Of a stretch of 64,000 bases of DNA, positions 14,229-24,053 are shown in pieces (position 1 is the stretch's first letter; every line of letters starts with the position of its first letter). This DNA comes from Ilumatobacteraceae bacterium (GTDB lineage Bacteria; Actinomycetota; Acidimicrobiia; Acidimicrobiales; Ilumatobacteraceae): contig JANMTV010000051.1 of assembly GCA_031390905.1 (NCBI GenBank), positions 2,881 through 66,880 of the forward strand, given 5' to 3'. The notes under the pieces were generated by a model. It did no database searches, was not told the origin of the DNA, and was given only the letters and a program-made list of their open reading frames with translations. The position numbers and the translations under genes are program-made.

Positions 14229-15665
14229 TCAGCTCTTTCGGGCGTTGAGGATCGTTGTGACCAGTTTGCCGTCGGCTTGACCTTTGCTGGCTTTCATGAT
14301 GTGGCCGACGAGGGCACCCATCGCTTTACCTTCGCCAGCGCAGAACTTTGCCCACGCCTCGGGGTCGGCGGCGATCGCAGCGTCGACGAACCCTGCGAGC
14401 TCGGAGGTATCCATCGCCGCGAAGCCCCTCTCGGCGGCGATCGCTGCGGCGTCTCCCCCGCCACGAGCAACCAACTCGGCAAGCACTGATTTTGCCTGCG
14501 TAGCCGTCAGCGCACCTTCGACTTCGAGGCGGGTGAGAGCAGCAACGTCGGCGGCAGGCAATGTCGGTTCCGGCCCAAGTTCCGCAAACGCTTCTTTGAT
14601 GTACACCACGGCGCGACCGACATCGCCACCAGCCGCTTGAACAGCAAGCGCATATTGATCCTGTCGACGATCAACGATCGACATGATCAATTCACTGTCG
14701 GGTGCCACGCCGGCGGCCTCGGCGAGCCGAGCTCGACGGACGGCAGGCAGCACGGGCAAAGCCGCTCGAACCTGATCGATCCATTCTTGACTTGGCTCGA
14801 CCGGCACAAGATCCGGCTCGAGGAAATAGCGATAATCGTCGGAGTTCTCCTTGTCACGCAGCGTGTGGGTCCGTCCGTCGCCCTCGTCCCAGTGACGGGT
14901 CTGCTGGCGCACCGACTCGCCCGCATCAAGCATCAGGATCTGACGCTTGGCCTCGTACTCGATCGCACGGCCAACAGATCGAACCGAGTTGACGTTCTTG
15001 ATCTCGCAGCGCGTGCCGTACTCGGCCCCGGCGCGACGCACGCTGACGTTGGCGTCAACACGCATCGAACCTTCTTCCATCTTGGCGTCGGAGGCACCGA
15101 TCGCCAGCAGGATCCCACGCAGTTCCGTCACGTACTGCCTGGCCTGCTCTGGTGAGCGAAGGTCAGGACGACTGACGATTTCGACCAGCGGCACACCGGC
15201 CCGGTTGAGGTCAATCAGCGAGTAGTCGGCGCCGTGTACACGGCCGTCGCCACCGGCATGCGACGACTTGCCGGCGTCCTCTTCCATATGCGCTCGCTCG
15301 ATGCCGATCCGCGTGCCATCTGGCAGGTCGAGCCATCCGTCGACGTTGAGCGGCTGGTCGTATTGGCTGATTTGGTAGGCCTTCGGCATATCGGGATAGA
15401 AATAGTTCTTGCGGGCGAACGTGCAGGCCTGCACCGTGCAGTTGAGCGACAGCCCGATTCGCAACGCCAACTCGACGGCATGGCGGTTGAGCACGGGTAG
15501 CGCGCCGGGCAGGCCGAGTGTGACCGGGTCGATGTTGGTGTTCGGCTCGTCACCAAACCGGTTCGGCGACGAGGAAAACAACTTCGTGTTCGTCGCCAAC
15601 TCGACATGTACTTCGAGACCAACAACCATCTCGTAGCCGTCGAGTTCCCACAGTGCATCGCTCAC
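14229..15665 (-). CDS. gatB: Asp/Glu-tRNA amidotransferase subunit B
   Basis: VGLEVHVEL, RKNYFYPDMPK, HMEEDAGK, NRAGVPLVEIVS, GSMRVDANVS. Confidence 0.98.
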   Translation of the reverse strand: MSDALWELDGYEMVVGLEVHVELATNTKLFSSSPNRFGDEPNTNIDPVTLGLPGALPVLNRHAVELALRIGLSLNCTVQACTFARKNYFYPDMPKAYQISQYDQPLNVDGWLDLPDGTRIGIERAHMEEDAGKSSHAGGDGRVHGADYSLIDLNRAGVPLVEIVSRPDLRSPEQARQYVTELRGILLAIGASDAKMEEGSMRVDANVSVRRAGAEYGTRCEIKNVNSVRSVGRAIEYEAKRQILMLDAGESVRQQTRHWDEGDGRTHTLRDKENSDDYRYFLEPDLVPVEPSQEWIDQVRAALPVLPAVRRARLAEAAGVAPDSELIMSIVDRRQDQYALAVQAAGGDVGRAVVYIKEAFAELGPEPTLPAADVAALTRLEVEGALTATQAKSVLAELVARGGGDAAAIAAERGFAAMDTSELAGFVDAAIAADPEAWAKFCAGEGKAMGALVGHIMKASKGQADGKLVTTILNARKS

Positions 15666-17104
15666 GACAGACCTCCCGCGGCGCGTTCCAACTCTGCCGC
15701 CACCTGCAGCATCACCGGCTCGCCGAGCGACGGTGCAAGCACTTGCACTCCGACCGGCAGGCCGTATGCACCGGAACCGAAGGGCACACTGATCGCCGGT
15801 TCACCGGTCAAGTTGGTCGGGATCGTGTAGGTATCGCACAGGTACATCGTCAGTGGACTATCGGTCTTGGCTCCGAATGGGAACGCAACGCTCGGCGATG
15901 TCGGCGTCAACAACACGTCAGCGTGCTCGTAGGCACGTGCGAAATCATCAGCCATGAGGCGGCGGATGCGCAGCGCCTTGCCATAGTACGCGTCGTAGTA
16001 GCCGGCCGAAAGGGCGTACGTGCCGAGCATGATTCGACGTTTCACCTCATCGCCGAAACCGGCGCTCCGGGTCGCCATGTACATCGAGTCGGTGTCGGCA
16101 GCGTCGACCCGCATCCCGTATCGCACACCGTCGTAGCGAGCCAGGTTCGACGAGGCTTCTGCCGGGGCAATGATGTAATACGCGGTGAGGCCGTAGGTGA
16201 ACGCCGGCACCTCGACGTCGACGATCATCGCGCCCGCTGCGGCGAGTGCGTCGAAGGCCTGTTCGACCCGTTCGGCGACGTCGGCATCGGCGCCCTCAGG
16301 CAAGTCACGAATCCGACCAACCCGGAGACCTTCGACGCCACGATCGAGGGCTGCTGAGTAGACCGGCACCGATTCAGGGATCGATGTCGAATCCATCGGG
16401 TCATGGCCGCAAATGACTTGCAGTGCGAGCGCCGCATCGGCGACCGTCTGCGTAAACGGGCCGATCTGATCGAGGCTGCTGGCGAACGCCACGAGGCCAT
16501 ACCGGCTGACGCGACCGTACGTCGGCTTGACACCGACGACGCCGCACAACGCTGCCGGTTGGCGGATCGAGCCGCCGGTGTCAGACCCGAACGAAAGTGC
16601 CGCAAAACCAGCCGCGACCGCAGCCGCTGAACCACCAGATGACCCACCCGGAACGCGGCTCGTGTCGAGTGGATTACGAGTCGGACCGAAGGCGGAGTTC
16701 TCAGTCGACGAACCCATCGCGAACTCGTCGAGGTTGGTCTTCCCAACCGTGATCGCCCCAGCGTTTCGAAGCATCGAAACGACCGTGCCGTCGTAGGGCG
16801 GCTTCCACCCCTCGAGGATCTTGGACGAGCAGGTCGTCGGCACACCACGGGTGCACATGTTGTCTTTGAGGGCAACCGGTACGCCGGCCAGCGGACCTGG
16901 GTCGTGACCCGCGGCGACTGCAGCATCGATCTCGGCAGCACGGGCTCGGGCTGAGTCAGCCATCACCAAGTTGAAGGCGTGTACCTCGGTTTCGCGTCCG
17001 TCGATCGCTGCCAGGTGCTGCTCCAGGACATCGACGGCCGAGAGGGTACCCGCACGGACACCAGCCACAATCGCTGACGCGGTGAGGCGCTCGGACATGG
17101 TCAT
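15662..17104 (-). CDS. gatA: Asp/Glu-tRNA amidotransferase subunit A
   Basis: GKTNLDEFAMGSS, GGSSGGSAAA, SDTGGSIRQP, RRIMLGTY. Confidence 0.98.
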   Translation of the reverse strand: MTMSERLTASAIVAGVRAGTLSAVDVLEQHLAAIDGRETEVHAFNLVMADSARARAAEIDAAVAAGHDPGPLAGVPVALKDNMCTRGVPTTCSSKILEGWKPPYDGTVVSMLRNAGAITVGKTNLDEFAMGSSTENSAFGPTRNPLDTSRVPGGSSGGSAAAVAAGFAALSFGSDTGGSIRQPAALCGVVGVKPTYGRVSRYGLVAFASSLDQIGPFTQTVADAALALQVICGHDPMDSTSIPESVPVYSAALDRGVEGLRVGRIRDLPEGADADVAERVEQAFDALAAAGAMIVDVEVPAFTYGLTAYYIIAPAEASSNLARYDGVRYGMRVDAADTDSMYMATRSAGFGDEVKRRIMLGTYALSAGYYDAYYGKALRIRRLMADDFARAYEHADVLLTPTSPSVAFPFGAKTDSPLTMYLCDTYTIPTNLTGEPAISVPFGSGAYGLPVGVQVLAPSLGEPVMLQVAAELERAAGGLS

Positions 17105-17403
17105 AGCTCCAACCCGGTCGTCGGAGGAACCCGGAAGCGACCGGCTTCAGGTTGCGGCGCTGCTGCCAGCACCTCGTCGCGATCGAGGCACGCCATTTCC
17201 ACGTCTTCACGCATCACGTTGACCAACCGGTACGGCTGCGTCATCGGAGCAATACCGGAAAGATCGAGAGCATCGATGTCGGCAAAATGATCGAGCATGT
17301 CGCCGAGTTGCTCAGTGGCGAGCCGGATCTCGTCAGGGGTCAAATCAAGCCGGGCCAGGCGGGCAACCTTGGCAACCGCATCACTCGTCAGACGTTCAGA
17401 CAC
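17101..17403 (-). CDS. gatC: Asp/Glu-tRNA amidotransferase subunit C
   Basis: VAKVARLARL, VNVMRED, FRVP; overlaps gatA start. Confidence 0.95.
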   Translation of the reverse strand: MSERLTSDAVAKVARLARLDLTPDEIRLATEQLGDMLDHFADIDALDLSGIAPMTQPYRLVNVMREDVEMACLDRDEVLAAAPQPEAGRFRVPPTTGLEL

Positions 17404-17441: not shown

Positions 17442-18626
17442 CTAGGTTGTCGCCAGCACCGTTGCCCGAATCGGTTCAGGCCCGATATAGCGAGCTGCGG
17501 GGCGAATCAGCTTTCCTGCCGCCGCCTGTTCGATGGCGTGCAGGCACCAACCCACGGTTCGGCTGACAGCGAACGTGGGCGTGAACATCGAACGCGGCAG
17601 GCCAACAGTCTCCATGATCACCCCGGCGTAGAACTCGACGTTGCTCGGCAACGGTCGATCCGGCTTCAACTCGGCCAACGTCGCAAGGATCTGTGACTCG
17701 ATCTTCATCGCTCGCTCGACCAACGGTCCGCCGAGCTGTGCAGCCACCTCACGGAGCAGCGTGGAGCGAGGGTCGGGTGCCCGATAGACGGCGTGTCCGA
17801 AACCCATGATCCGACGACCGGCAGCCGTCTCGCGCCGAACCCACTCGGCAGCCCGATCCGGCGAACCGATCGCATCAAGCGCATCAAGCGCCCGGCTCGG
17901 CGCACCACCGTGGAGAGGACCGGCGAGCGCGCCAATCGCCGAACACACGACGTCGACCAGATCGGCCCCAGTCGAGGCCACTACTCGACCGGTGAACGTC
18001 GAAGCATTGAATCCGTGGTCAATCGTGAGGATCAAGTACTGCTCCAAGGCTCTGGAATGTTCGTCAGACGGATAGCGACCAGTCACCTGATGCAGGTAAG
18101 CCGCGGTATGACCGAGCTGATCGTCAGGTTCGACGGGCTCGAGGCCGATCACGCTTCGATGCAACCTGGCAAGAATCGTCGGCACCACTGATGCAACACG
18201 TTGCGCTTGACGGCTGCGCTCGGGTTGCATGAGGTCGAGCATGGGCGACAGGTTCAGCGCGGCCGTCGACACCGCCAACACTGACCGCAGTTTGGCGAGC
18301 GGGCTGGCCGACGTGGCAGCAACCGCATCAATCACTCGATCCAGCTCGGCTGGCACCAATCGGTCGGCGGCAATCGCCGCAGTGAACCGAGCACGTTCAG
18401 CCTCGTCAGGAAGATGACCACGATCGAGCAGAAACCAGGCATCCTCGAAACCGACGTGCCGAGCGAGGCCGACGGCGTCATATTGTCGATAGTGGAAGAA
18501 CCCCTCGTCGCCTCGCACATCGCCGATTTCTGTGGTCGCCACGGCAACTCCGTTGAGTCCGAATGGGACATCGATCAGGTTCTGCATACGTTCCAGTGTC
18601 GAGAGAACTTGATCCAATATCAACAT
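17442..18626 (-). CDS. Citrate synthase / 2-methylcitrate synthase family
   Basis: DHGFNASTF, GPLHGGA, MGFGHAVYRAPDPR, NVEFYAG; start may be 18626 or 18587. Confidence 0.88.
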   Translation of the reverse strand: MLILDQVLSTLERMQNLIDVPFGLNGVAVATTEIGDVRGDEGFFHYRQYDAVGLARHVGFEDAWFLLDRGHLPDEAERARFTAAIAADRLVPAELDRVIDAVAATSASPLAKLRSVLAVSTAALNLSPMLDLMQPERSRQAQRVASVVPTILARLHRSVIGLEPVEPDDQLGHTAAYLHQVTGRYPSDEHSRALEQYLILTIDHGFNASTFTGRVVASTGADLVDVVCSAIGALAGPLHGGAPSRALDALDAIGSPDRAAEWVRRETAAGRRIMGFGHAVYRAPDPRSTLLREVAAQLGGPLVERAMKIESQILATLAELKPDRPLPSNVEFYAGVIMETVGLPRSMFTPTFAVSRTVGWCLHAIEQAAAGKLIRPAARYIGPEPIRATVLATT

Positions 18627-18644
18627 TGATTGAATCAACGTTGA
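18620..18644. promoter_or_regulatory. 25-bp palindrome, candidate operator
   Basis: TCAACATTGATT-G-AATCAACGTTGA, 11/12 arm match, between divergent starts. Confidence 0.6.
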
Positions 18645-18675
18645 CAGATCCACTCCAATCGATGACGATGGCGTC

Positions 18676-19824
18676 GTGAGTACATCAATCGGGGCGTCCG
18701 ATGCAGCACGACTGCTCGGCGTCAGCAAGTCGACCCTGTACGCCTACGTCAGCAGAGGGATCGTCACCCGTCGGACCGCCGTCGACGGCCGCACATCGCT
18801 GTACAACCGAGACGAAATCGACCACCTCCGGCAGCGATCACGCCAACGTCCAGTCATGGAAAGACCGACCATCGACGTCCAAATCACATCGTCGATCACC
18901 GAACTGCACGACGACGGTGTGCGTTACAGAGGGCACGACGTGGCCGAGCTGGCCACTACGACATCGTTCGAGCGCACCGCCGAACTGCTGTGGACCAACC
19001 GTCTCCCTGAGGACGAGCCGCGGTGGCCGGTCGACAGAGAGCTGCTGGCGATCTGCAAACGAGCGGTTGGCGCCGTCGACTCAGGCGATCCGCTGACTGC
19101 GCTGGCTCTGACTGCCACAGTCCTTGCCGCCCACTCCCCCACACTCGACGCGCCCGCCGCCGCCCGCCACATGTTGGCGATCGTTCCCGCTGTCCTTGGT
19201 GGCTCTCTTCGCGGCGATGTGGCGAGCCGTCTCAGCAGTTCGTGGATCAAGAACCCCTCACCGGAGTTTGTCGCCGCAGTCGCGCAGACATTGGTGCTGC
19301 TCGCCGACCATGAACTGGCGACCAGCACGCTGGCGGTGCGAGTCGCCTGCTCGGTGCGAACTGATCCGTACTCGGCATTCGTTGTCGGACTGTCGGTCAT
19401 GCGTGGCGCACTGCATGGTGCCGCCAGCCGTGACGTGGCCACGCTCTTTGATGAAGCTGCCGAGGTTGGCGCGTCGGCGGCTGTGAACGGGTACGTGAGA
19501 CGAAGGGATCGGCTCCCCGGATTCGGTCACAGCGTGTATCGCAATGGCGACCCTCGGTTTGTTCCACTGCTCGAATGCGTCTCTCGAATTCCCGTCACCA
19601 ACGACAGGATCGACATCGTCCATGACGTGTTGGGGGCAGCGGGGCGACAGCTCGGTCTCTACCCAAATGTCGATTTCGCGCTCGGTGCGCTGACATTCGT
19701 CACCGAGATTCCGCCCGACGTTCCACTGTTCGCGATCGCCAGGATCGCCGGCTGGGCGGCCCACTATGCCGAGGAGCTCGACGAGCGACCAGTTCGCTTC
19801 CGAGGGCTGGCACGCGCCCGGTGA
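18676..19824 (+). CDS. Citrate-synthase-like protein with N-terminal helix-turn-helix
   Basis: AARLLGVSKSTLYAYVSRG (excisionase/MerR-type HTH), then DHELATST, LHGAA, GFGHSVY, NVDFAL. Confidence 0.88.
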   Translation: MSTSIGASDAARLLGVSKSTLYAYVSRGIVTRRTAVDGRTSLYNRDEIDHLRQRSRQRPVMERPTIDVQITSSITELHDDGVRYRGHDVAELATTTSFERTAELLWTNRLPEDEPRWPVDRELLAICKRAVGAVDSGDPLTALALTATVLAAHSPTLDAPAAARHMLAIVPAVLGGSLRGDVASRLSSSWIKNPSPEFVAAVAQTLVLLADHELATSTLAVRVACSVRTDPYSAFVVGLSVMRGALHGAASRDVATLFDEAAEVGASAAVNGYVRRRDRLPGFGHSVYRNGDPRFVPLLECVSRIPVTNDRIDIVHDVLGAAGRQLGLYPNVDFALGALTFVTEIPPDVPLFAIARIAGWAAHYAEELDERPVRFRGLARAR

Positions 19825-19830
19825 CGATCC

Positions 19831-20733
19831 TCAATCGACTGGCTCAGCCGTCTCTGACTCCACGTGAATCTCTGCGACGGCTTCGACGTCCGCGTCAGGT
19901 TCGGCTTCTGTTGGAGTCGGAGCAGTGGGCCAGGTGCGGCCACGGGTCAACAGGAGGTAGATCGCTCCGCCTGCGATCGTCGCCAACGCAACCCACTGAT
20001 TCCAGCGCATACCGGCGACCTGATGCGACAGGTCGATGCGGAGGCCCTCGATCCAGAATCGGCCAATCCCGTATCCGATCAGATACACCGCCAGCAAACG
20101 GCCTGGCGCGAGCCTGAACCGACGATGGACCCACAACAAGACCGCACACAACGCCAGGTTCCACAGCGATTCATACAGGAACGCCGGGTGATACGTCGTG
20201 CCAGCCAAATCGCCGACCGGTTGATGATCGGCGTCGATTTCGAGTCCCCACGGCAGGTCGGTCGGCTTACCGTACAGCTCCTGGTTGAACCAGTTCCCCC
20301 AGCGACCGATCGCCTGCGCCAGCGGAATCGCAGGCGCCACGCACGTCATCACGATCGGCACCGGAATACCTCGGCGTTTCGCCTGCCAACCACCCACCAC
20401 CAGTCCGGCCAGAATCCCCCCGGGAATCCCGAGCCCGCCTTCCCAGATCTTGGGGATCGAACCGAGATCGTCGGAGAAGCGACTCCAGTCGGTGGCGACG
20501 TGATAGAGCCGTGCACCGATCACACCGGCAACGACTCCCCACGTTGCGATCGACGACGCATCGTCTGTGGTCCCAACTCGTTCTTCGACGAACAGCTTGC
20601 CCATCAACCACACACCGGCGATCACGCCGAGGGCGATCATCAGACCATAAGCCCGCAAGTTGAGCGGACCAATCGAGATCGCATTGTCCGACGGGCTCGG
20701 CAGCGAACCCAGCAAAGCGCCGAAACCGTTCAA
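19831..20733 (-). CDS. lgt: Prolipoprotein diacylglyceryl transferase
   Basis: LRAYGLMI, WEGGLGIPGG, AIGRWGNWFNQELYG, HPAFLYES, RFWIEGLR; start approximate. Confidence 0.93.
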   Translation of the reverse strand: MNGFGALLGSLPSPSDNAISIGPLNLRAYGLMIALGVIAGVWLMGKLFVEERVGTTDDASSIATWGVVAGVIGARLYHVATDWSRFSDDLGSIPKIWEGGLGIPGGILAGLVVGGWQAKRRGIPVPIVMTCVAPAIPLAQAIGRWGNWFNQELYGKPTDLPWGLEIDADHQPVGDLAGTTYHPAFLYESLWNLALCAVLLWVHRRFRLAPGRLLAVYLIGYGIGRFWIEGLRIDLSHQVAGMRWNQWVALATIAGGAIYLLLTRGRTWPTAPTPTEAEPDADVEAVAEIHVESETAEPVD

Positions 20734-21479
20734 GAGTGACTCACTTTCTTGACGAAGGCGACCGCCTCTGACGTGACGAAGTCGCGTTCGTAGTCTCGGG
20801 TGGCGACATGATAGCTGCGTTCGAGCCACGTGTGTTCGACCTCGCCGCCCCATGTGCCGACGAGATATTCGCTGTCGGCCGGGTCAACCACGTGATCCTG
20901 ACGGGAGGTCAGCACAAGCAGGGGCATCTGCAGCTCACCGAAACGATCCGTGATCTTGGCAATACCGTCGTGGAGTAGTGAACGCAGCGGAACCAGGGGT
21001 GTGCCGGGATACGCGATGTCGGACGCATCCGGATCGGCGATGTCAGATTCGTCGCCACCCGGCACGATTGTCAAACCGTCCTCGATGAACTCGTCGAGCA
21101 TCTCCATCGTGACGGCGTCACGAAGTCGGGTCAACGGATTGATGCACACCAGCCCGGAAACGGAGCGATGTTGGAGCGCTGCATTCAAAATCAGGCTGGC
21201 ACCCATGCTCTGACCCACCAGGACGACGTGTTGCGTACGAGCCGCCAGGCGCTGGTAGGCGAATTCGACCTCACCGACCCAGTCGTTCCATCCCGTCGTC
21301 AACATGTCGTTCACGGTGGTCCCGTGACCTGGTAGTCGCGGCAGCTCGACGTCGAACCCGGCGTCAACCATCGCGTCGGCGATCTGGCGCAATGAGGCAG
21401 GCGAGCCGGTAAATCCATGCAGTGTGATCACACCCACCTGCGACCCGGCGACATGCGACATCGGCTCGCATCCGGGCAT
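20730..21479 (-). CDS. Carboxylesterase / monoacylglycerol lipase, alpha/beta hydrolase
   Basis: LHGFTGSP, LPGHGT, GQSMG, QDHVV, SYHVAT. Confidence 0.88.
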   Translation of the reverse strand: MPGCEPMSHVAGSQVGVITLHGFTGSPASLRQIADAMVDAGFDVELPRLPGHGTTVNDMLTTGWNDWVGEVEFAYQRLAARTQHVVLVGQSMGASLILNAALQHRSVSGLVCINPLTRLRDAVTMEMLDEFIEDGLTIVPGGDESDIADPDASDIAYPGTPLVPLRSLLHDGIAKITDRFGELQMPLLVLTSRQDHVVDPADSEYLVGTWGGEVEHTWLERSYHVATRDYERDFVTSEAVAFVKKVSHS

Positions 21480-21601
21480 CACCTCCACAGCTATGCCTGC
21501 GCTAACCGTCATCCCAGAGTTTCTAGCAGCCGATTGGCTTGACCCGCTGGTCAAGCGTCGGCTTCACTAGGACAGTGAGCATCGGTGAGCGAACATCGAC
21601 C

Positions 21602-22210
21602 ATGCAACGCCAGCTCACCGATCAGGGCCGCGAACGCAAACAACAACTTGTCGACGCGGCGATGGCGTTGTTCGCTGATCGCGGGTACAACGCCACCAGG
21701 ATCAGTGATATCTGCGCATCGGCCGGGGTCGCCAAGGGGTTGTTCTACTGGTACTTCCCGACCAAGTTGGATCTGTTCAGCGAACTCGTGCGCTCGATGC
21801 GGCAGCGACTTCGTCGTGCACAGGCCGAGGCAATGTCCGACGCCGATCCGATCACCAAGATCGGTCAAGGAGCAGCCGCCAGCGTGTTGTTCATGGCGGA
21901 CCACGCGACGTACTTCGCCCTCGTCGATCTCGAGCGTGCCGACCCAGCGATCGCCGAAACGTTACGTTCGAGCGGTCATGTGTACCTCGCTGACGTAACC
22001 GCACTCGTGCGCGACGCACAGGCAATCGGCCAGATCCCCGACGCCGACCCAACCTTGTTGGCGCTCGGAGTGCTCGGTTCCGTCTCGTCGTTCAGTAATG
22101 CGTGGAGGAGCGGTCGAATCGAGTTATCGGCCGACGAGTTGGCGGAGTTCGTCGCCGACTGGGTCGTGCGAGCGCTCGGTGCCAACCGAGCTAAGAAGAC
22201 GAGCCAATAG
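21602..22210 (+). CDS. TetR family regulator
   Basis: ISDICASAGVAKGLFYWYFPTKLDLF. Confidence 0.92.
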   Translation: MQRQLTDQGRERKQQLVDAAMALFADRGYNATRISDICASAGVAKGLFYWYFPTKLDLFSELVRSMRQRLRRAQAEAMSDADPITKIGQGAAASVLFMADHATYFALVDLERADPAIAETLRSSGHVYLADVTALVRDAQAIGQIPDADPTLLALGVLGSVSSFSNAWRSGRIELSADELAEFVADWVVRALGANRAKKTSQ

Positions 22211-22303
22211 GCGAGGCGACCAATCGTTACGGTGCGCTATTTCGCTGCGCAGCAGGCGAAATGAAACTCCAGCACGGAGAACCTTCCTGTCCGCTGGACC
22301 CCT
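22211..22303. repeat. Dispersed ~94-bp intergenic repeat, copy A
   Basis: Aligns with 25105-25199; contains TTCG-CTGCGCAG-CAGGCGAA dyad. Confidence 0.85.
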
Positions 22304-24053
22304 ACGTGAGCTCGTCGCCCAGTTCTGGGTGACGCGCCGTCAACATCGCAACGAAGGCGTCAACCACGGCTGGGTCGAACTGGCCACCGCGACCGGAGAC
22401 GACGAATCGCGCCGCTTCCTCGCGGGCCCATGCCCGTTTGTACGGCCGACGGCTACACAACGCGTCGAACACATCGGCGATTGACACGATCCGGCCGGAC
22501 AACGCAATCGAGCCGCGGCTGATCCCAAGCGGATAGCCGCTGCCATCCCACCACTCGTGGTGCGACTGGGCGATCTCGGCCGCCATTTGGAACAACGAGG
22601 CAGAGTTCCCTGCCAGAATCCGATGACCCATGCTGGTATGCGACTTCATCATCTCGTACTCCTCGACGGTCAACGGACCGGTCTTCTGGAGCACGGCGTC
22701 AGGGACCGCAACCTTGCCGATGTCATGCAGGCGAGCGGCAGTGCGGAGTTGCTCGCACCACTCAGGTGACTTTCCAAGTGCATGCGCGATTTCTGCGGCC
22801 ATGTCACCCACACGGTTTGTGTGTTCGCCGGTCTCGGCGTCTCGGAACTCGGTCAGGATCGCCAGTTGTTCGAAGGCTTCAAGGTGATACGCGGGCGTTG
22901 TAGGAACCAAGCTCTGCACCACCGCCCTGCCTCCAACCATCGCTTCCAGTTCCTGGGTCCGAAGTCGAAGGATCTCGGCCTGGTGGCGGGCATTCGCAGT
23001 TTCGTGGGCAACCTGCAGTGTTCGTAAGCGCAAATCAGCGGCATGCGTGAACATTTGTCGGTATTGCGCGTCGTGCTTCTCGCGCCGTTCCAGTGCCTGC
23101 TCGAATCGACCACGCCGCTTGAATGCGGTCGCCAGCAGATCGTTGATTTCCAACTCGTACTCGCGCGATTCGGTACGCTCCGACATGTCCAGCGCGGCTT
23201 GGAGCACACCGATCGCATCGTCGAGTGCACCACGCCGCAACGCGACGCGACCTTCTGCCACCATCACCCCGAGCTGCGCTGCGTGTGACGGTTCCGAACC
23301 TTCCTCGGAACGTTCCTGCAACACGCGCCTCGCCTCGGCGAAGCATTCTGCGGCCTTCACGTGATCGGCGAGGCCCATGTATGCCTCTGCGAGATCGGCG
23401 AGCAGATTGGTCACGATCGACGGTTCATGCCGACGAGCAATTTCGACCGCTCGGCGACCCATCGACACCGCCGGCAAGTACTCGGATCGCGACGAGCGAA
23501 TTCGGGCGATGTTGCCCATCACCAGCGCCACCAGATCGGGACGCCCATACGGCTCAGCGGCGGCTAGCGCCTGTTCGTACGTCACGATCGCCCGGTCGTT
23601 GTCGCCCATCGAATGATAAACGGCGGCGATCGTGTTGAGAATGTTGCCGGCGTCTACGCCGTGGCCTGTTGCCTGGTACAGATCAAGCGCCCGTAGGCAC
23701 CGTTCGAGCGATTCGGAGAAGTTCGACGCCTGATAGTGAACGACGCCGAGCAGATGCACCGCCCATGCTTCGACGAGTTGGGCGTTGCACTGGGCGGCGA
23801 TTTCACTGGCTTCCATCGCCAACCCGAAGGCGTCCTCAGGGTCACCGCTGGAATGGGCGAGGCTGGCAAGCCGGTAGAGCGATTCCGCTTCGCCGACGCG
23901 GTCGCCCTCAGCACGCGACACCACCCGCGCCTGGATCGCTAACTGACGAGCCGCCCCCGGGTTCTGATCTTGTTCGTCTGAGGCGCGCTGGAGCAGGTCC
24001 CGTACCGCCGGGGACGCGCTCGGATCAGTCGACGCAGGGGCATTCGGTTCCAC
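22302..24053 (-). CDS. TPR-repeat + HD-GYP phosphodiesterase
   Basis: TPR-like helices, then ETGEHTNRV, LHDIGKV, HHEWWDGSGYP, IADVFDAL. Confidence 0.9.
   Translation of the reverse strand: MEPNAPASTDPSASPAVRDLLQRASDEQDQNPGAARQLAIQARVVSRAEGDRVGEAESLYRLASLAHSSGDPEDAFGLAMEASEIAAQCNAQLVEAWAVHLLGVVHYQASNFSESLERCLRALDLYQATGHGVDAGNILNTIAAVYHSMGDNDRAIVTYEQALAAAEPYGRPDLVALVMGNIARIRSSRSEYLPAVSMGRRAVEIARRHEPSIVTNLLADLAEAYMGLADHVKAAECFAEARRVLQERSEEGSEPSHAAQLGVMVAEGRVALRRGALDDAIGVLQAALDMSERTESREYELEINDLLATAFKRRGRFEQALERREKHDAQYRQMFTHAADLRLRTLQVAHETANARHQAEILRLRTQELEAMVGGRAVVQSLVPTTPAYHLEAFEQLAILTEFRDAETGEHTNRVGDMAAEIAHALGKSPEWCEQLRTAARLHDIGKVAVPDAVLQKTGPLTVEEYEMMKSHTSMGHRILAGNSASLFQMAAEIAQSHHEWWDGSGYPLGISRGSIALSGRIVSIADVFDALCSRRPYKRAWAREEAARFVVSGRGGQFDPAVVDAFVAMLTARHPELGDELT

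What the first reader, a model, noticed from the sequence alone, without database searches (positions are those of the whole stretch)
17442..19824. Citrate synthase plus divergent HTH-citrate-synthase fusion sharing a 25-bp palindrome
The fusion has an N-terminal HTH and still shows His/His/Asp catalytic motifs. Between the genes is an AT-rich palindrome (18620-18644) built from two smaller dyads (ATCAACATTGAT, TCAACGTTGA) that covers the likely start of the synthase. Inference: an enzyme fold used as a citrate/oxaloacetate/acyl-CoA sensor, with this as its operator. I cannot verify whether this family has been characterised.
Basis: partly seen in the sequence, partly recalled or inferred. Interest (0 to 1): 0.55.

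Follow-up and report, generated by a model that had tools for sequence, protein, structure and literature searches.

The report
Citrate-synthase-fold regulator with conserved operator
A gene annotated as citrate synthase most likely encodes a DNA-binding switch built from a citrate-synthase body; through a 27-bp site that is nearly unchanged across many bacterial phyla it probably controls itself and the minor citrate synthase gene next to it, and I found no paper that describes this protein family as a regulator.

Summary
Window 17442-18587 (-) encodes a CitA-type citrate synthase. Window 18676-19824 (+) encodes a MerR/excisionase-type winged HTH fused to a complete citrate-synthase fold that keeps His/His/Asp and the acid-binding Arg residues.

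The 88-nt spacer holds two tandem dyads, ATCAACATTGAT (18619-18630) and ATCAACGTTGAC (18634-18645). They do not cover the synthase start, which is the ATG at 18587.

- It is invariant in about 20 Ilumatobacteraceae loci while the flanks drift.
- A matching site lies within 200 nt upstream of the fusion gene in 75 of 76 loci from at least 7 phyla (background 0.004 per 210 nt).
- It is the only such composite site in this genome.

The outer half-sites coincide with -35-like hexamers of two divergent promoters that look leaderless. My best reading is therefore a dimeric, metabolite-responsive autoregulator and repressor of the synthase gene. The ligand, the sign of regulation and any residual catalysis are untested.

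Papers treat the homologues (Streptomyces citA3/citA4, probably Caulobacter CitB/CitC) only as putative synthases. This scan has flagged the same family on other DNA at least 14 times.

Verdict: a real member of an apparently undescribed regulator family. No bench data exist.

The parts
17442..18587 (-). CitA-type (minor) citrate synthase gene, 381 aa, with Glu (NVEF) where classical synthases have the catalytic Asp
   Evidence: Pfam Citrate_synt 3.8e-103. Best solved relatives are B. subtilis CitA 2c6x (E 4e-76) and M. tuberculosis CitA. The start at 18587 is supported. NVE(F/Y/L) occurs in 74 of 75 partner genes.
18595..18600 (-). -10-like hexamer GACACT of the synthase promoter, 7 nt before the ATG (suggests a leaderless transcript)
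   Evidence: Read. It is the only conserved block left of the operator in 25 aligned Ilumatobacteraceae loci. Function is inferred.
18618..18623 (-). -35-like hexamer TTGATA of the synthase promoter, overlapping the outer half of dyad 1; 17-nt spacer to the -10
   Evidence: Read. Function is inferred.
18619..18630 (.). Operator dyad 1, ATCAACATTGAT
   Evidence: The columns are invariant (2.0 bits) across relatives.
18634..18645 (.). Operator dyad 2, ATCAACGTTGAC, 15 nt from dyad 1
18641..18646 (+). -35-like hexamer TTGACA of the fusion-gene promoter, overlapping the outer half of dyad 2
   Evidence: Read. Function is inferred.
18648..18653 (+). Degenerate third half-site ATCCAC (5 of 6 to ATCAAC) inside the promoter spacer
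   Evidence: Relatives carry TCCAC or a full ATCAAC at this place.
18664..18669 (+). -10-like hexamer GACGAT, 17 nt after the -35 and 6 nt before the GTG start (suggests a leaderless transcript)
   Evidence: The A and T columns are conserved at 1.7 bits. Streptomyces loci have TACGGT at the same distance from the start codon. Function is inferred.
18676..19824 (+). HTH-citrate-synthase fusion gene, 382 aa, the proposed regulator
   Evidence: AlphaFold2 mean pLDDT 94.1.
18697..18837 (+). MerR/excisionase-type winged HTH (aa 8-54); recognition helix carries the family-invariant TLYAYVSRG
   Evidence: Pfam HTH_17. Invariant Y22, Y24, V25, S26 and R27 over 57 sequences. The fold matches BldC, RacA, NmlR, SoxR and Xis at rmsd 1.5-1.7 A.
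18886..19788 (+). Complete citrate-synthase fold (aa 71-371) with H212, H247, H285, R294, D333, R356 and R376 kept
   Evidence: Foldseek TM about 0.75 to M. tuberculosis PrpC and other synthases.

Best explanation
The plus-strand gene encodes a one-component transcription factor.

Architecture (inferred). Its citrate-synthase body forms the usual synthase dimer, which places two N-terminal MerR-type winged HTH domains on one 12-bp dyad (ATCAAC.GTTGAT). Two such dimers occupy the two adjacent dyads, and perhaps the weak third half-site.

Promoter overlap (read from the sequence). The outer half-sites are also the -35-like hexamers of two divergent promoters that look leaderless: TTGATA for the synthase gene and TTGACA for the regulator gene.

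Output (inferred). Bound protein blocks both promoters. It thus represses the CitA-type citrate synthase and itself.

Signal (inferred). A metabolite of the synthase reaction (oxaloacetate, acetyl-CoA or CoA, or citrate) binds in the retained active-site cleft. The known open-to-closed domain movement of this fold then changes the HTH geometry and so the DNA affinity.

Shown here:
- the domain architecture;
- the retained pocket residues;
- the site, its uniqueness in this genome, and its conservation and linkage to the fusion gene across phyla.

Inferred:
- that the fusion is the protein that binds the site;
- dimer stoichiometry;
- the promoter assignment;
- repression rather than activation;
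- the ligand.
For: 1. Architecture. HTH_17 plus Citrate_synt. Confident model, pLDDT 94. The HTH fold matches DNA-bound MerR-superfamily domains. The body matches whole citrate synthases.

2. Operator conservation. In 25 Ilumatobacteraceae loci the 27 operator columns score about 2 bits while the flanks score 0.1-0.5 bits, although the proteins are only 46-60% identical.

3. Breadth. 75 of 76 loci have a site with at most 1 mismatch to RTCAAYRTTGAY within 200 nt upstream of the fusion gene. Background in the same loci is 0.004 per 210 nt. The loci come from Actinomycetota, Myxococcota, Gemmatimonadota, Latescibacterota, Acidobacteriota, Alphaproteobacteria and Binatia.

4. The site follows the fusion gene, not the synthase. 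It is present where the divergent synthase is missing (L010, L013, L020). It is also present where the neighbour is a homocitrate/Re-citrate-synthase-like HMGL enzyme or a CoA-transferase.

5. The recognition helix TLYAYVSRG is invariant over 57 sequences, matching an invariant DNA site.

6. Local regulon. No second composite site exists in the 96%-complete genome.

7. Promoter geometry. Hexamers, 17-nt spacers and 6-7 nt to the start codons. The only conserved flank columns are the two -10-like elements. The Streptomyces loci, taken from the same 80-locus scan, show a TACGGT -10 placed 6-7 nt before the start codon.

8. Sensor pocket. H212, H247, H285, R294, D333, R356 and R376 are kept in at least 99% of 70 fusions. 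The protein as a whole evolves faster than its partner, 54-60% against 70-74% identity between the same genomes.

9. One origin. Fusion bodies form one clade and partners another, each with support 100.

10. Published hint. Caulobacter CitB complements E. coli gltA but its neighbour CitC does not (PMC7083601). The citC primers encode MTDWMDAEQVL, which fits the family's HTH N-terminus.
Against: - There is no binding, expression or ligand experiment for any family member.
- The E. coli-style promoter scan found no promoter in the spacer. My -10 hexamers (GACACT, GACGAT) lack the usual first T.
- A site centred near -37 could also serve an activator.
- The full catalytic triad, including the Asp that is needed only for chemistry on acetyl-CoA, is kept. 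This fits an active enzyme as well as a sensor.
- The membership of Caulobacter CitC rests on 11 residues deduced from primers, not on its sequence.
Confidence: 0.7

Rival explanations
1. Bifunctional 'trigger enzyme'. The fusion is still a working citrate or 2-methylcitrate synthase (or citryl-CoA lyase) that also binds DNA, as PutA does. Regulation follows catalytic turnover rather than simple ligand binding. This overlaps with the best explanation on DNA binding and differs on catalysis.
For: - H247, H285 and D333 and all acid-binding Arg residues are kept in at least 99% of 70 fusions from many phyla.
- The fold is complete.
- The fusion keeps the classical Asp, whereas its partner has Glu.
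Against: - Fusion-specific changes occur at columns invariant in the partner synthases: Asn to Ala215 (90%), Met to Pro281 (93%), and a deleted Glu (100%).
- Overall divergence is faster than in the partner enzyme.
- Caulobacter CitC, a probable member, did not complement E. coli gltA.
Confidence: 0.25
2. The fusion binds the site but acts as an activator, or as a ligand-dependent activator/repressor switch, of one or both promoters rather than as a simple repressor.
For: - Each dyad is centred about 37 nt upstream of one start and about 52 nt upstream of the other. Those positions are used by some activators.
- MerR-superfamily proteins are often activators.
- The -10-like hexamers are weak.
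Against: - The dyads overlap the -35-like hexamers and do not lie in a 19-20-bp spacer as in MerR-type activation. The spacers here are 17 nt.
- A third half-site lies inside the regulator's own promoter spacer.
Confidence: 0.25
3. The conserved sequence is bound by another protein, or is conserved only as a pair of back-to-back -35 elements. The HTH of the fusion would then have a different target.
For: - The half-site TTGAC resembles the -35 consensus.
- In Streptomyces a response regulator, MtrA, binds the same intergenic region (PMC12323332).
Against: - Promoter hexamers alone would not keep 24 of 27 positions invariant, including the inner halves.
- The site is linked to the fusion gene in 75 of 76 loci across phyla, with various neighbours.
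- The site is unique in this genome.
- The reported MtrA site matches a separate Streptomyces-specific element beside the dyads, not the dyads themselves.
Confidence: 0.05

Closest known systems
Caulobacter crescentus CitB / CitC (CCNA_03757 / CCNA_03758; Berge et al. 2020, eLife, PMC7083601)
   Same: - Adjacent pair of minor citrate-synthase paralogues.
- CitB is an active synthase whose N-terminus (MMSDGLEGV, from the primers) looks like that of the partner here.
- CitC did not complement E. coli gltA.
- The citC primers encode MTDWMDAEQVL, which fits the HTH N-terminus of this family.
   Different: - The paper treats CitC only as a putative synthase. It mentions no HTH, DNA binding or operator.
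- I could not obtain the CitC sequence, so membership is probable but not shown.
Streptomyces coelicolor SCO5831 / SCO5832 (citA3 / citA4; PMC12323332)
   Same: - The paper places an MtrA site in the intergenic sequence between the two genes, as expected for a divergent pair.
- Streptomyces loci fetched here show the fusion, a divergent CitA-type synthase and the dyad between them.
- Those loci also carry a conserved neighbouring element that resembles the published MtrA probe; in L093 it differs from the probe at one position.
   Different: - The papers call both genes putative citrate synthases and study MtrA control only.
- S. coelicolor itself was not among my loci.
Bacillus subtilis citA-citR (a LysR-type repressor divergent from the minor synthase CitA); from my own knowledge of Jin and Sonenshein's work
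   Same: - The regulated enzyme is of the same clade: 2c6x is the best solved match (E 4e-76) and has the same NVEF motif.
- The layout is divergent, with a dedicated local regulator.
   Different: The regulator here is not LysR-type. It is an HTH fused to a second citrate-synthase fold.
MocR/GabR/PdxR regulators and PutA (enzyme folds fused to DNA-binding domains); from general knowledge
   Same: - Same logic: a whole dimeric enzyme fold serves as the dimerisation and effector module of a local transcription factor.
- Such factors often autoregulate from a divergent promoter.
   Different: - The DNA-binding domains differ (GntR winged helix, ribbon-helix-helix).
- The enzyme folds differ (aminotransferase, proline dehydrogenase).
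- There is no sequence relationship.
Small MerR-superfamily HTH proteins: BldC, RacA, phage and ICE excisionases (Xis, RdfS)
   Same: The best structural matches to the HTH domain share the strand, helix-turn-helix, wing and helix layout and lack a MerR coiled coil.
   Different: - Those proteins are stand-alone and oligomerise on DNA.
- Here dimerisation is presumably supplied by the fused enzyme fold.
- There is no integrase context.

Membership tests
Citrate synthase family (Pfam PF00285) | Full-length match to the Citrate_synt profile and the two-domain all-helical fold | tested here: met
   Fusion: 184.6 bits, profile positions 9-352 of 357; Foldseek TM about 0.75 to solved synthases. Partner: 345.7 bits.
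Citrate synthase family (Pfam PF00285) | Catalytic His, His and Asp plus the acid-binding His and Arg residues | tested here: met
   Fusion: H247, H285, D333, H212, R294, R356 and R376 are kept in at least 99% of 70 fusions. The partner has Glu for the Asp, as do B. subtilis and M. tuberculosis CitA.
Citrate synthase family (Pfam PF00285) | Citrate synthase activity | not testable with these tools
   No curated NCBIfam model is reached: the best, TIGR01800, scores 138 bits against a cut-off of 421. The only bench hint is that Caulobacter CitC failed to complement.
MerR family transcription regulators | N-terminal winged HTH of the MerR type | tested here: met
   Pfam MerR and MerR_1 give sub-threshold hits; HTH_17 scores 27.8 against a cut-off of 27. 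Structural matches to NmlR, SoxR, MtaN and CueR have rmsd about 1.7-2.4 A.
MerR family transcription regulators | Long C-terminal coiled-coil dimerisation helix followed by an effector-binding region | tested here: not met
   After helix 45-56 comes a 15-residue linker and then the synthase fold.
MerR family transcription regulators | Operator inside an over-long (19-20 bp) -35/-10 spacer | tested here: not met
   The dyads overlap the -35-like hexamers and the spacers are 17 nt. The promoter assignment itself is inferred.
Excisionase / recombination directionality factors (HTH_17, TIGR01764) | Small stand-alone protein next to an integrase in a mobile element | tested here: not met
   The protein has 382 aa. 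Its neighbours are gatCAB, lgt, a hydrolase and a TetR gene. TIGR01764 scores only 16.5 bits against a cut-off of 28.8.
HTH-citrate-synthase fusion family with the RTCAAYRTTGAY site (undescribed; defined here and in earlier notes of this scan) | N-terminal HTH with the T(L/V)YAYVSRG recognition helix, fused to a Citrate_synt domain | tested here: met
   A profile of this HTH finds 2331 clusters (at 50% identity) at E of 1e-10 or better. In the members sampled with enough sequence it is followed by Citrate_synt; the exceptions were one fragment with the HTH alone and one protein of tandem HTH repeats.
HTH-citrate-synthase fusion family with the RTCAAYRTTGAY site (undescribed; defined here and in earlier notes of this scan) | The dyad lies within about 200 nt upstream of the fusion gene | tested here: met
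   Two perfect dyads end 31 nt before the start codon. The same holds in 75 of 76 loci.
HTH-citrate-synthase fusion family with the RTCAAYRTTGAY site (undescribed; defined here and in earlier notes of this scan) | Divergent gene for an acyl-CoA-using enzyme, most often a CitA-type synthase | tested here: met
   A CitA-type synthase lies 88 nt away. A divergent synthase is present in about 60 of 80 loci. In other loci the slot holds HMGL-like or CoA-transferase genes.
Caulobacter CitB/CitC pair | CitC carries the HTH and faces CitB across the dyad | tested here: inconclusive
   Only 11 N-terminal residues could be deduced from primers; they fit the family. A primer scan of the metagenome collection found no CitC locus.

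The most novel reading that the evidence does not exclude
The fusion is the founding example of a large transcription-factor family that nobody has recognised (about 2300 clusters at 50% identity, at least 7 phyla). In this family a complete, possibly still catalytic, citrate-synthase dimer reads the oxaloacetate / acetyl-CoA / citrate state of the cell. Through one almost universal 12-bp dyad it gates the promoter of an alternative first enzyme of the TCA cycle: a CitA-type synthase, a Re-citrate-synthase-like enzyme, or a CoA-transferase.
Probability: 0.55. Interest if true: 0.75.

Novelty: new variant of a known kind. Interest (0 to 1): 0.62.

Why it matters
If true, thousands of genes now annotated as 'citrate synthase' are mis-annotated regulators. 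Counts of TCA-cycle isoenzymes in Streptomyces, Caulobacter and many uncultured lineages would then be inflated.

It would add a central-metabolism enzyme fold to the short list of whole enzymes recruited as transcription-factor sensor modules (MocR/GabR, PutA).

It would also explain how the poorly understood minor (CitA-type) citrate synthases are controlled.

Because the DNA site and the recognition helix are nearly invariant across phyla, one EMSA or one crystal structure would hold for the whole family. The pair could also serve as a portable biosensor for oxaloacetate, acetyl-CoA or citrate.

Tried and rejected
1. Long ORF start for the synthase (TTG 18728 or the ATG inside the palindrome). 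Rejected from orthologue and Pfam alignments.

2. Wider regulon. Single-dyad and composite scans of the whole genome found nothing convincing. The other perfect 12-mer (contig C2:2314) lies inside ORFs. Two one-mismatch sites (C127:13954, C130:18475) are copies of a repeated element.

3. Co-regulated operon. The genes downstream of the synthase are gatCAB, which are housekeeping. The gene after the fusion is a convergent lgt.

4. RNA element in the spacer. No Rfam match at E of 0.1 or better.

5. E. coli-type promoter scan. It found none, so the promoter model rests on actinobacterial-style A..T -10 elements and their conservation.

6. Direct test that Caulobacter CitC is a member. An exact scan of metagenome contigs with the citC primer gave 31 unrelated loci. 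The paper's supplements hold no annotation for it. Only the primer-derived peptide could be used.

7. Literature. Nine searches found no description of the fusion as a regulator.

8. Co-variation between the recognition helix (TL or TV before YAYVSRG) and the centre of the dyad (CG or TA). There is a trend, but it follows phylogeny, so I do not use it.

9. Excisionase or mobile-element reading. Rejected because there is no integrase context.
Full report
**What is there.**
- The minus-strand product is a full citrate synthase (Pfam Citrate_synt, 3.8e-103).
- The plus-strand product has an HTH_17/MerR-like helix-turn-helix at residues 8-54 and a Citrate_synt domain at 71-371.
- No curated NCBIfam model reaches its cut-off for the fusion. 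The best, TIGR01800, scores 138 bits against 421.
- The two proteins share only 28% identity.
- The genome also has a type I synthase on contig C11 and a citryl-CoA-lyase-like gene on C163. The pair is therefore an accessory module.
- Names attached to the closest homologues place the organism in Ilumatobacter/Ilumatobacteraceae, class Acidimicrobiia.

**Correction to the observation.**
- The synthase starts at ATG 18587, not inside the palindrome.
- Pfam position 1 aligns to residue 57 of the long ORF.
- About 15 orthologues, B. subtilis CitA (2c6x) and M. tuberculosis CitA align from MQNLIDVPFGLNGV.
- The ATG inside the palindrome is absent from orthologues whose dyad centre is CG.
- The intergenic spacer is therefore 88 nt (18588-18675), and the palindrome sits in its middle.

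**The palindrome.**
- It consists of two tandem dyads: ATCAACATTGAT (18619-18630) and ATCAACGTTGAC (18634-18645), 15 nt apart.
- A weak third half-site, ATCCAC, follows at 18648-18653.
- The 27-nt composite occurs once in the window, with 0 expected.
- It occurs once in the 4.26-Mb, 96%-complete assembly; the next best site has 4 mismatches.
- Single dyads elsewhere in the genome lie inside ORFs or in a repeated element.

- In relatives of the same genus and family the fusion is 46-60% identical and the partner 63-74%.
- The spacer keeps a length of about 85-94 nt in these loci.
- The 27 operator columns are essentially invariant (2.0 bits) while the flanks score 0.1-0.5 bits.
- The only other conserved columns are two short blocks, which I read as -10 elements (see the promoter model below).
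- The site is also present upstream of fusion genes that lack the neighbouring synthase: L010, L013 and L020.

**Breadth.**
- The 80 loci kept include Streptomyces, Kribbella, Gordonia, Amycolatopsis, Nonomuraea and Actinoplanes. They also include Polyangiaceae and other Myxococcota, Gemmatimonadota, Latescibacterota, Terriglobales, Mesorhizobium, Rhodospirillaceae and Binatia.
- In 75 of 76 usable loci, a site with at most one mismatch to RTCAAYRTTGAY lies within 200 nt upstream of the fusion gene. The rate elsewhere in the same loci is 0.004 per 210 nt.
- A divergent CitA-type synthase is present in about 60 of 80 loci.
- Where it is absent, the divergent slot often holds another acyl-CoA enzyme:
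  - an HMGL-like, homocitrate/Re-citrate-synthase-like enzyme in L064, L070, L076 and L079;
  - a family III CoA-transferase in L044 and L078.
- A non-homologous Claisen-condensing enzyme in the same slot argues that the controlled output is acetyl-CoA plus 2-oxo-acid condensation.
- A profile of the HTH alone finds 2331 clusters (at 50% identity) at E of 1e-10 or better. In the members sampled with enough sequence, the HTH is followed by a synthase domain. The exceptions were one fragment with the HTH alone and one protein of tandem HTH repeats.

**The proteins.**
- Over 57 fusions from these phyla, the recognition-helix residues Y22, Y24, V25, S26 and R27 are invariant. So are H212, R222, H285, D292, R294 and R376. 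H247, D333, R356 and N331 are kept in at least 90%.
- A column-by-column comparison of 70 fusion/partner pairs shows that the fusion keeps the catalytic triad and the acid-binding residues in at least 99% of cases. It differs systematically at positions invariant in the partner synthases:
  - Asn to Ala215 (90%);
  - Met to Pro281 (93%);
  - one Glu deleted (100%).
- The partners carry Glu in the NVEF motif where classical synthases have Asp (74 of 75). B. subtilis and M. tuberculosis CitA do the same.
- Fusion bodies form one clade and partners another, each with support 100. Fusion branches are about twice as long.
- AlphaFold2 gives a confident model (pLDDT 94.1) with a strand, helix-turn-helix, wing and helix head, a 15-residue linker and a complete synthase fold.
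- Foldseek matches the body to solved synthases at TM about 0.75.
- Foldseek matches the isolated head to BldC, RacA, NmlR, SoxR, MtaN, CueR and Xis at rmsd 1.5-2.4 A.

**Promoter model (inferred).**
- Synthase gene: -35-like TTGATA (18623-18618), a 17-nt spacer, -10-like GACACT (18600-18595), then 7 nt to the ATG.
- Fusion gene: -35-like TTGACA (18641-18646), a 17-nt spacer, -10-like GACGAT (18664-18669), then 6 nt to the GTG.
- Both -35 hexamers are the outer half-sites of the operator.
- Both -10 elements coincide with the conserved flank columns.
- No Shine-Dalgarno sequence is conserved, and the distances fit leaderless transcripts.
- Streptomyces loci show a textbook TACGGT 6-7 nt before the fusion start codon.
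- Against this model, the E. coli-style scan finds no promoter in the spacer.

**Mechanism.**
- Most likely (0.7 overall), a synthase-type dimer places two HTH heads on each dyad, occludes both -35 elements, and represses the synthase gene and its own gene.
- A metabolite of the synthase reaction, bound in the retained cleft, changes DNA affinity.
- My estimates for the separate steps:
  - binding of this site by this protein, about 0.85;
  - repression rather than activation, about 0.6;
  - pure sensor rather than still-active enzyme, about 0.6-0.7.

**Literature.**
- Nine searches found no paper that describes the fusion as a regulator.
- S. coelicolor SCO5831/SCO5832 are called citA3/citA4, 'putative citrate synthases'. 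MtrA binds between them.
- The published MtrA probe resembles a Streptomyces-specific element that lies beside the dyads in my loci, not the dyads themselves.
- In Caulobacter, CitB complements E. coli gltA and the adjacent CitC does not.
- The citC primers encode MTDWMDAEQVL, which fits the family's N-terminus. The citB primers encode a GLEGV-type synthase start.
- I could not obtain the CitC sequence itself.

**Earlier notes of this scan.**
- The same family and site have been reported on other genomes at least 14 times, including loci with HMGL-like or CoA-transferase neighbours.
- I re-derived the main points independently on this window.
- These notes are not independent evidence.

**Verdict.**
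- The feature is real and the operator inference is strongly supported.
- The sensor inference is plausible.
- This is a typical, clean member of an apparently undescribed family of enzyme-fold regulators. Both dyads are perfect and the promoter geometry is symmetrical.

Noticed in passing
window 14229-17403 (-): A gatC-gatA-gatB operon starts 38 nt downstream of the citrate synthase stop, on the same strand. In relative L010, which lacks the synthase, the fusion gene faces an amidase (GatA-like) gene directly. The synthase therefore seems to have been lost from an otherwise syntenic locus there.
   Followed up: partly
L019/L027 (G014), L022 (G008), L024/L028 (G017): In these relatives the fusion gene, and in two of them also the synthase, align in several frames. 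The assemblies have few contigs and low completeness. Long-read indel errors are as likely as true pseudogenes.
   Followed up: no
own genome, contigs C127:13954 and C130:18475: Two one-mismatch copies of the 12-mer dyad lie in inverted copies of the same repeated sequence of about 80 nt or more. This is probably the end of a mobile or repeated element, not an operator.
   Followed up: partly
L073-L107 (Streptomyces loci), between the dyad and the synthase gene: A second conserved element, TTGAYTCGACTGTCCATG, lies on the synthase side of the spacer. It resembles the MtrA EMSA probe reported for SCO5831/SCO5832 (TTGACTTAACTGTCCA; PMC12323332); in L093 it differs from the probe at one position. 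Two regulators probably share that spacer in Streptomyces.
   Followed up: partly
L064, L070, L076, L079; L044, L078; L021: Across the same dyad, the fusion gene faces different genes in different loci. In four loci it is an HMGL-like homocitrate/Re-citrate-synthase-like gene. In two it is a family III CoA-transferase. In one it is a DUF2332 gene.
   Followed up: partly
window 19821-20117 (+): A 98-aa ORF overlaps the fusion gene's stop codon. It has no Pfam match and lies antisense to the lgt gene (19831-20853, -). It is probably not a gene.
   Followed up: partly
P0168: A 270-aa metagenomic protein made of about five tandem copies of this HTH type, with no synthase domain.
   Followed up: no
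window 20730-22210 and 22302-24053: A divergent alpha/beta-hydrolase / TetR pair, followed by a TPR plus HD-domain (HD_5) protein. They appear unrelated to the finding.
   Followed up: no
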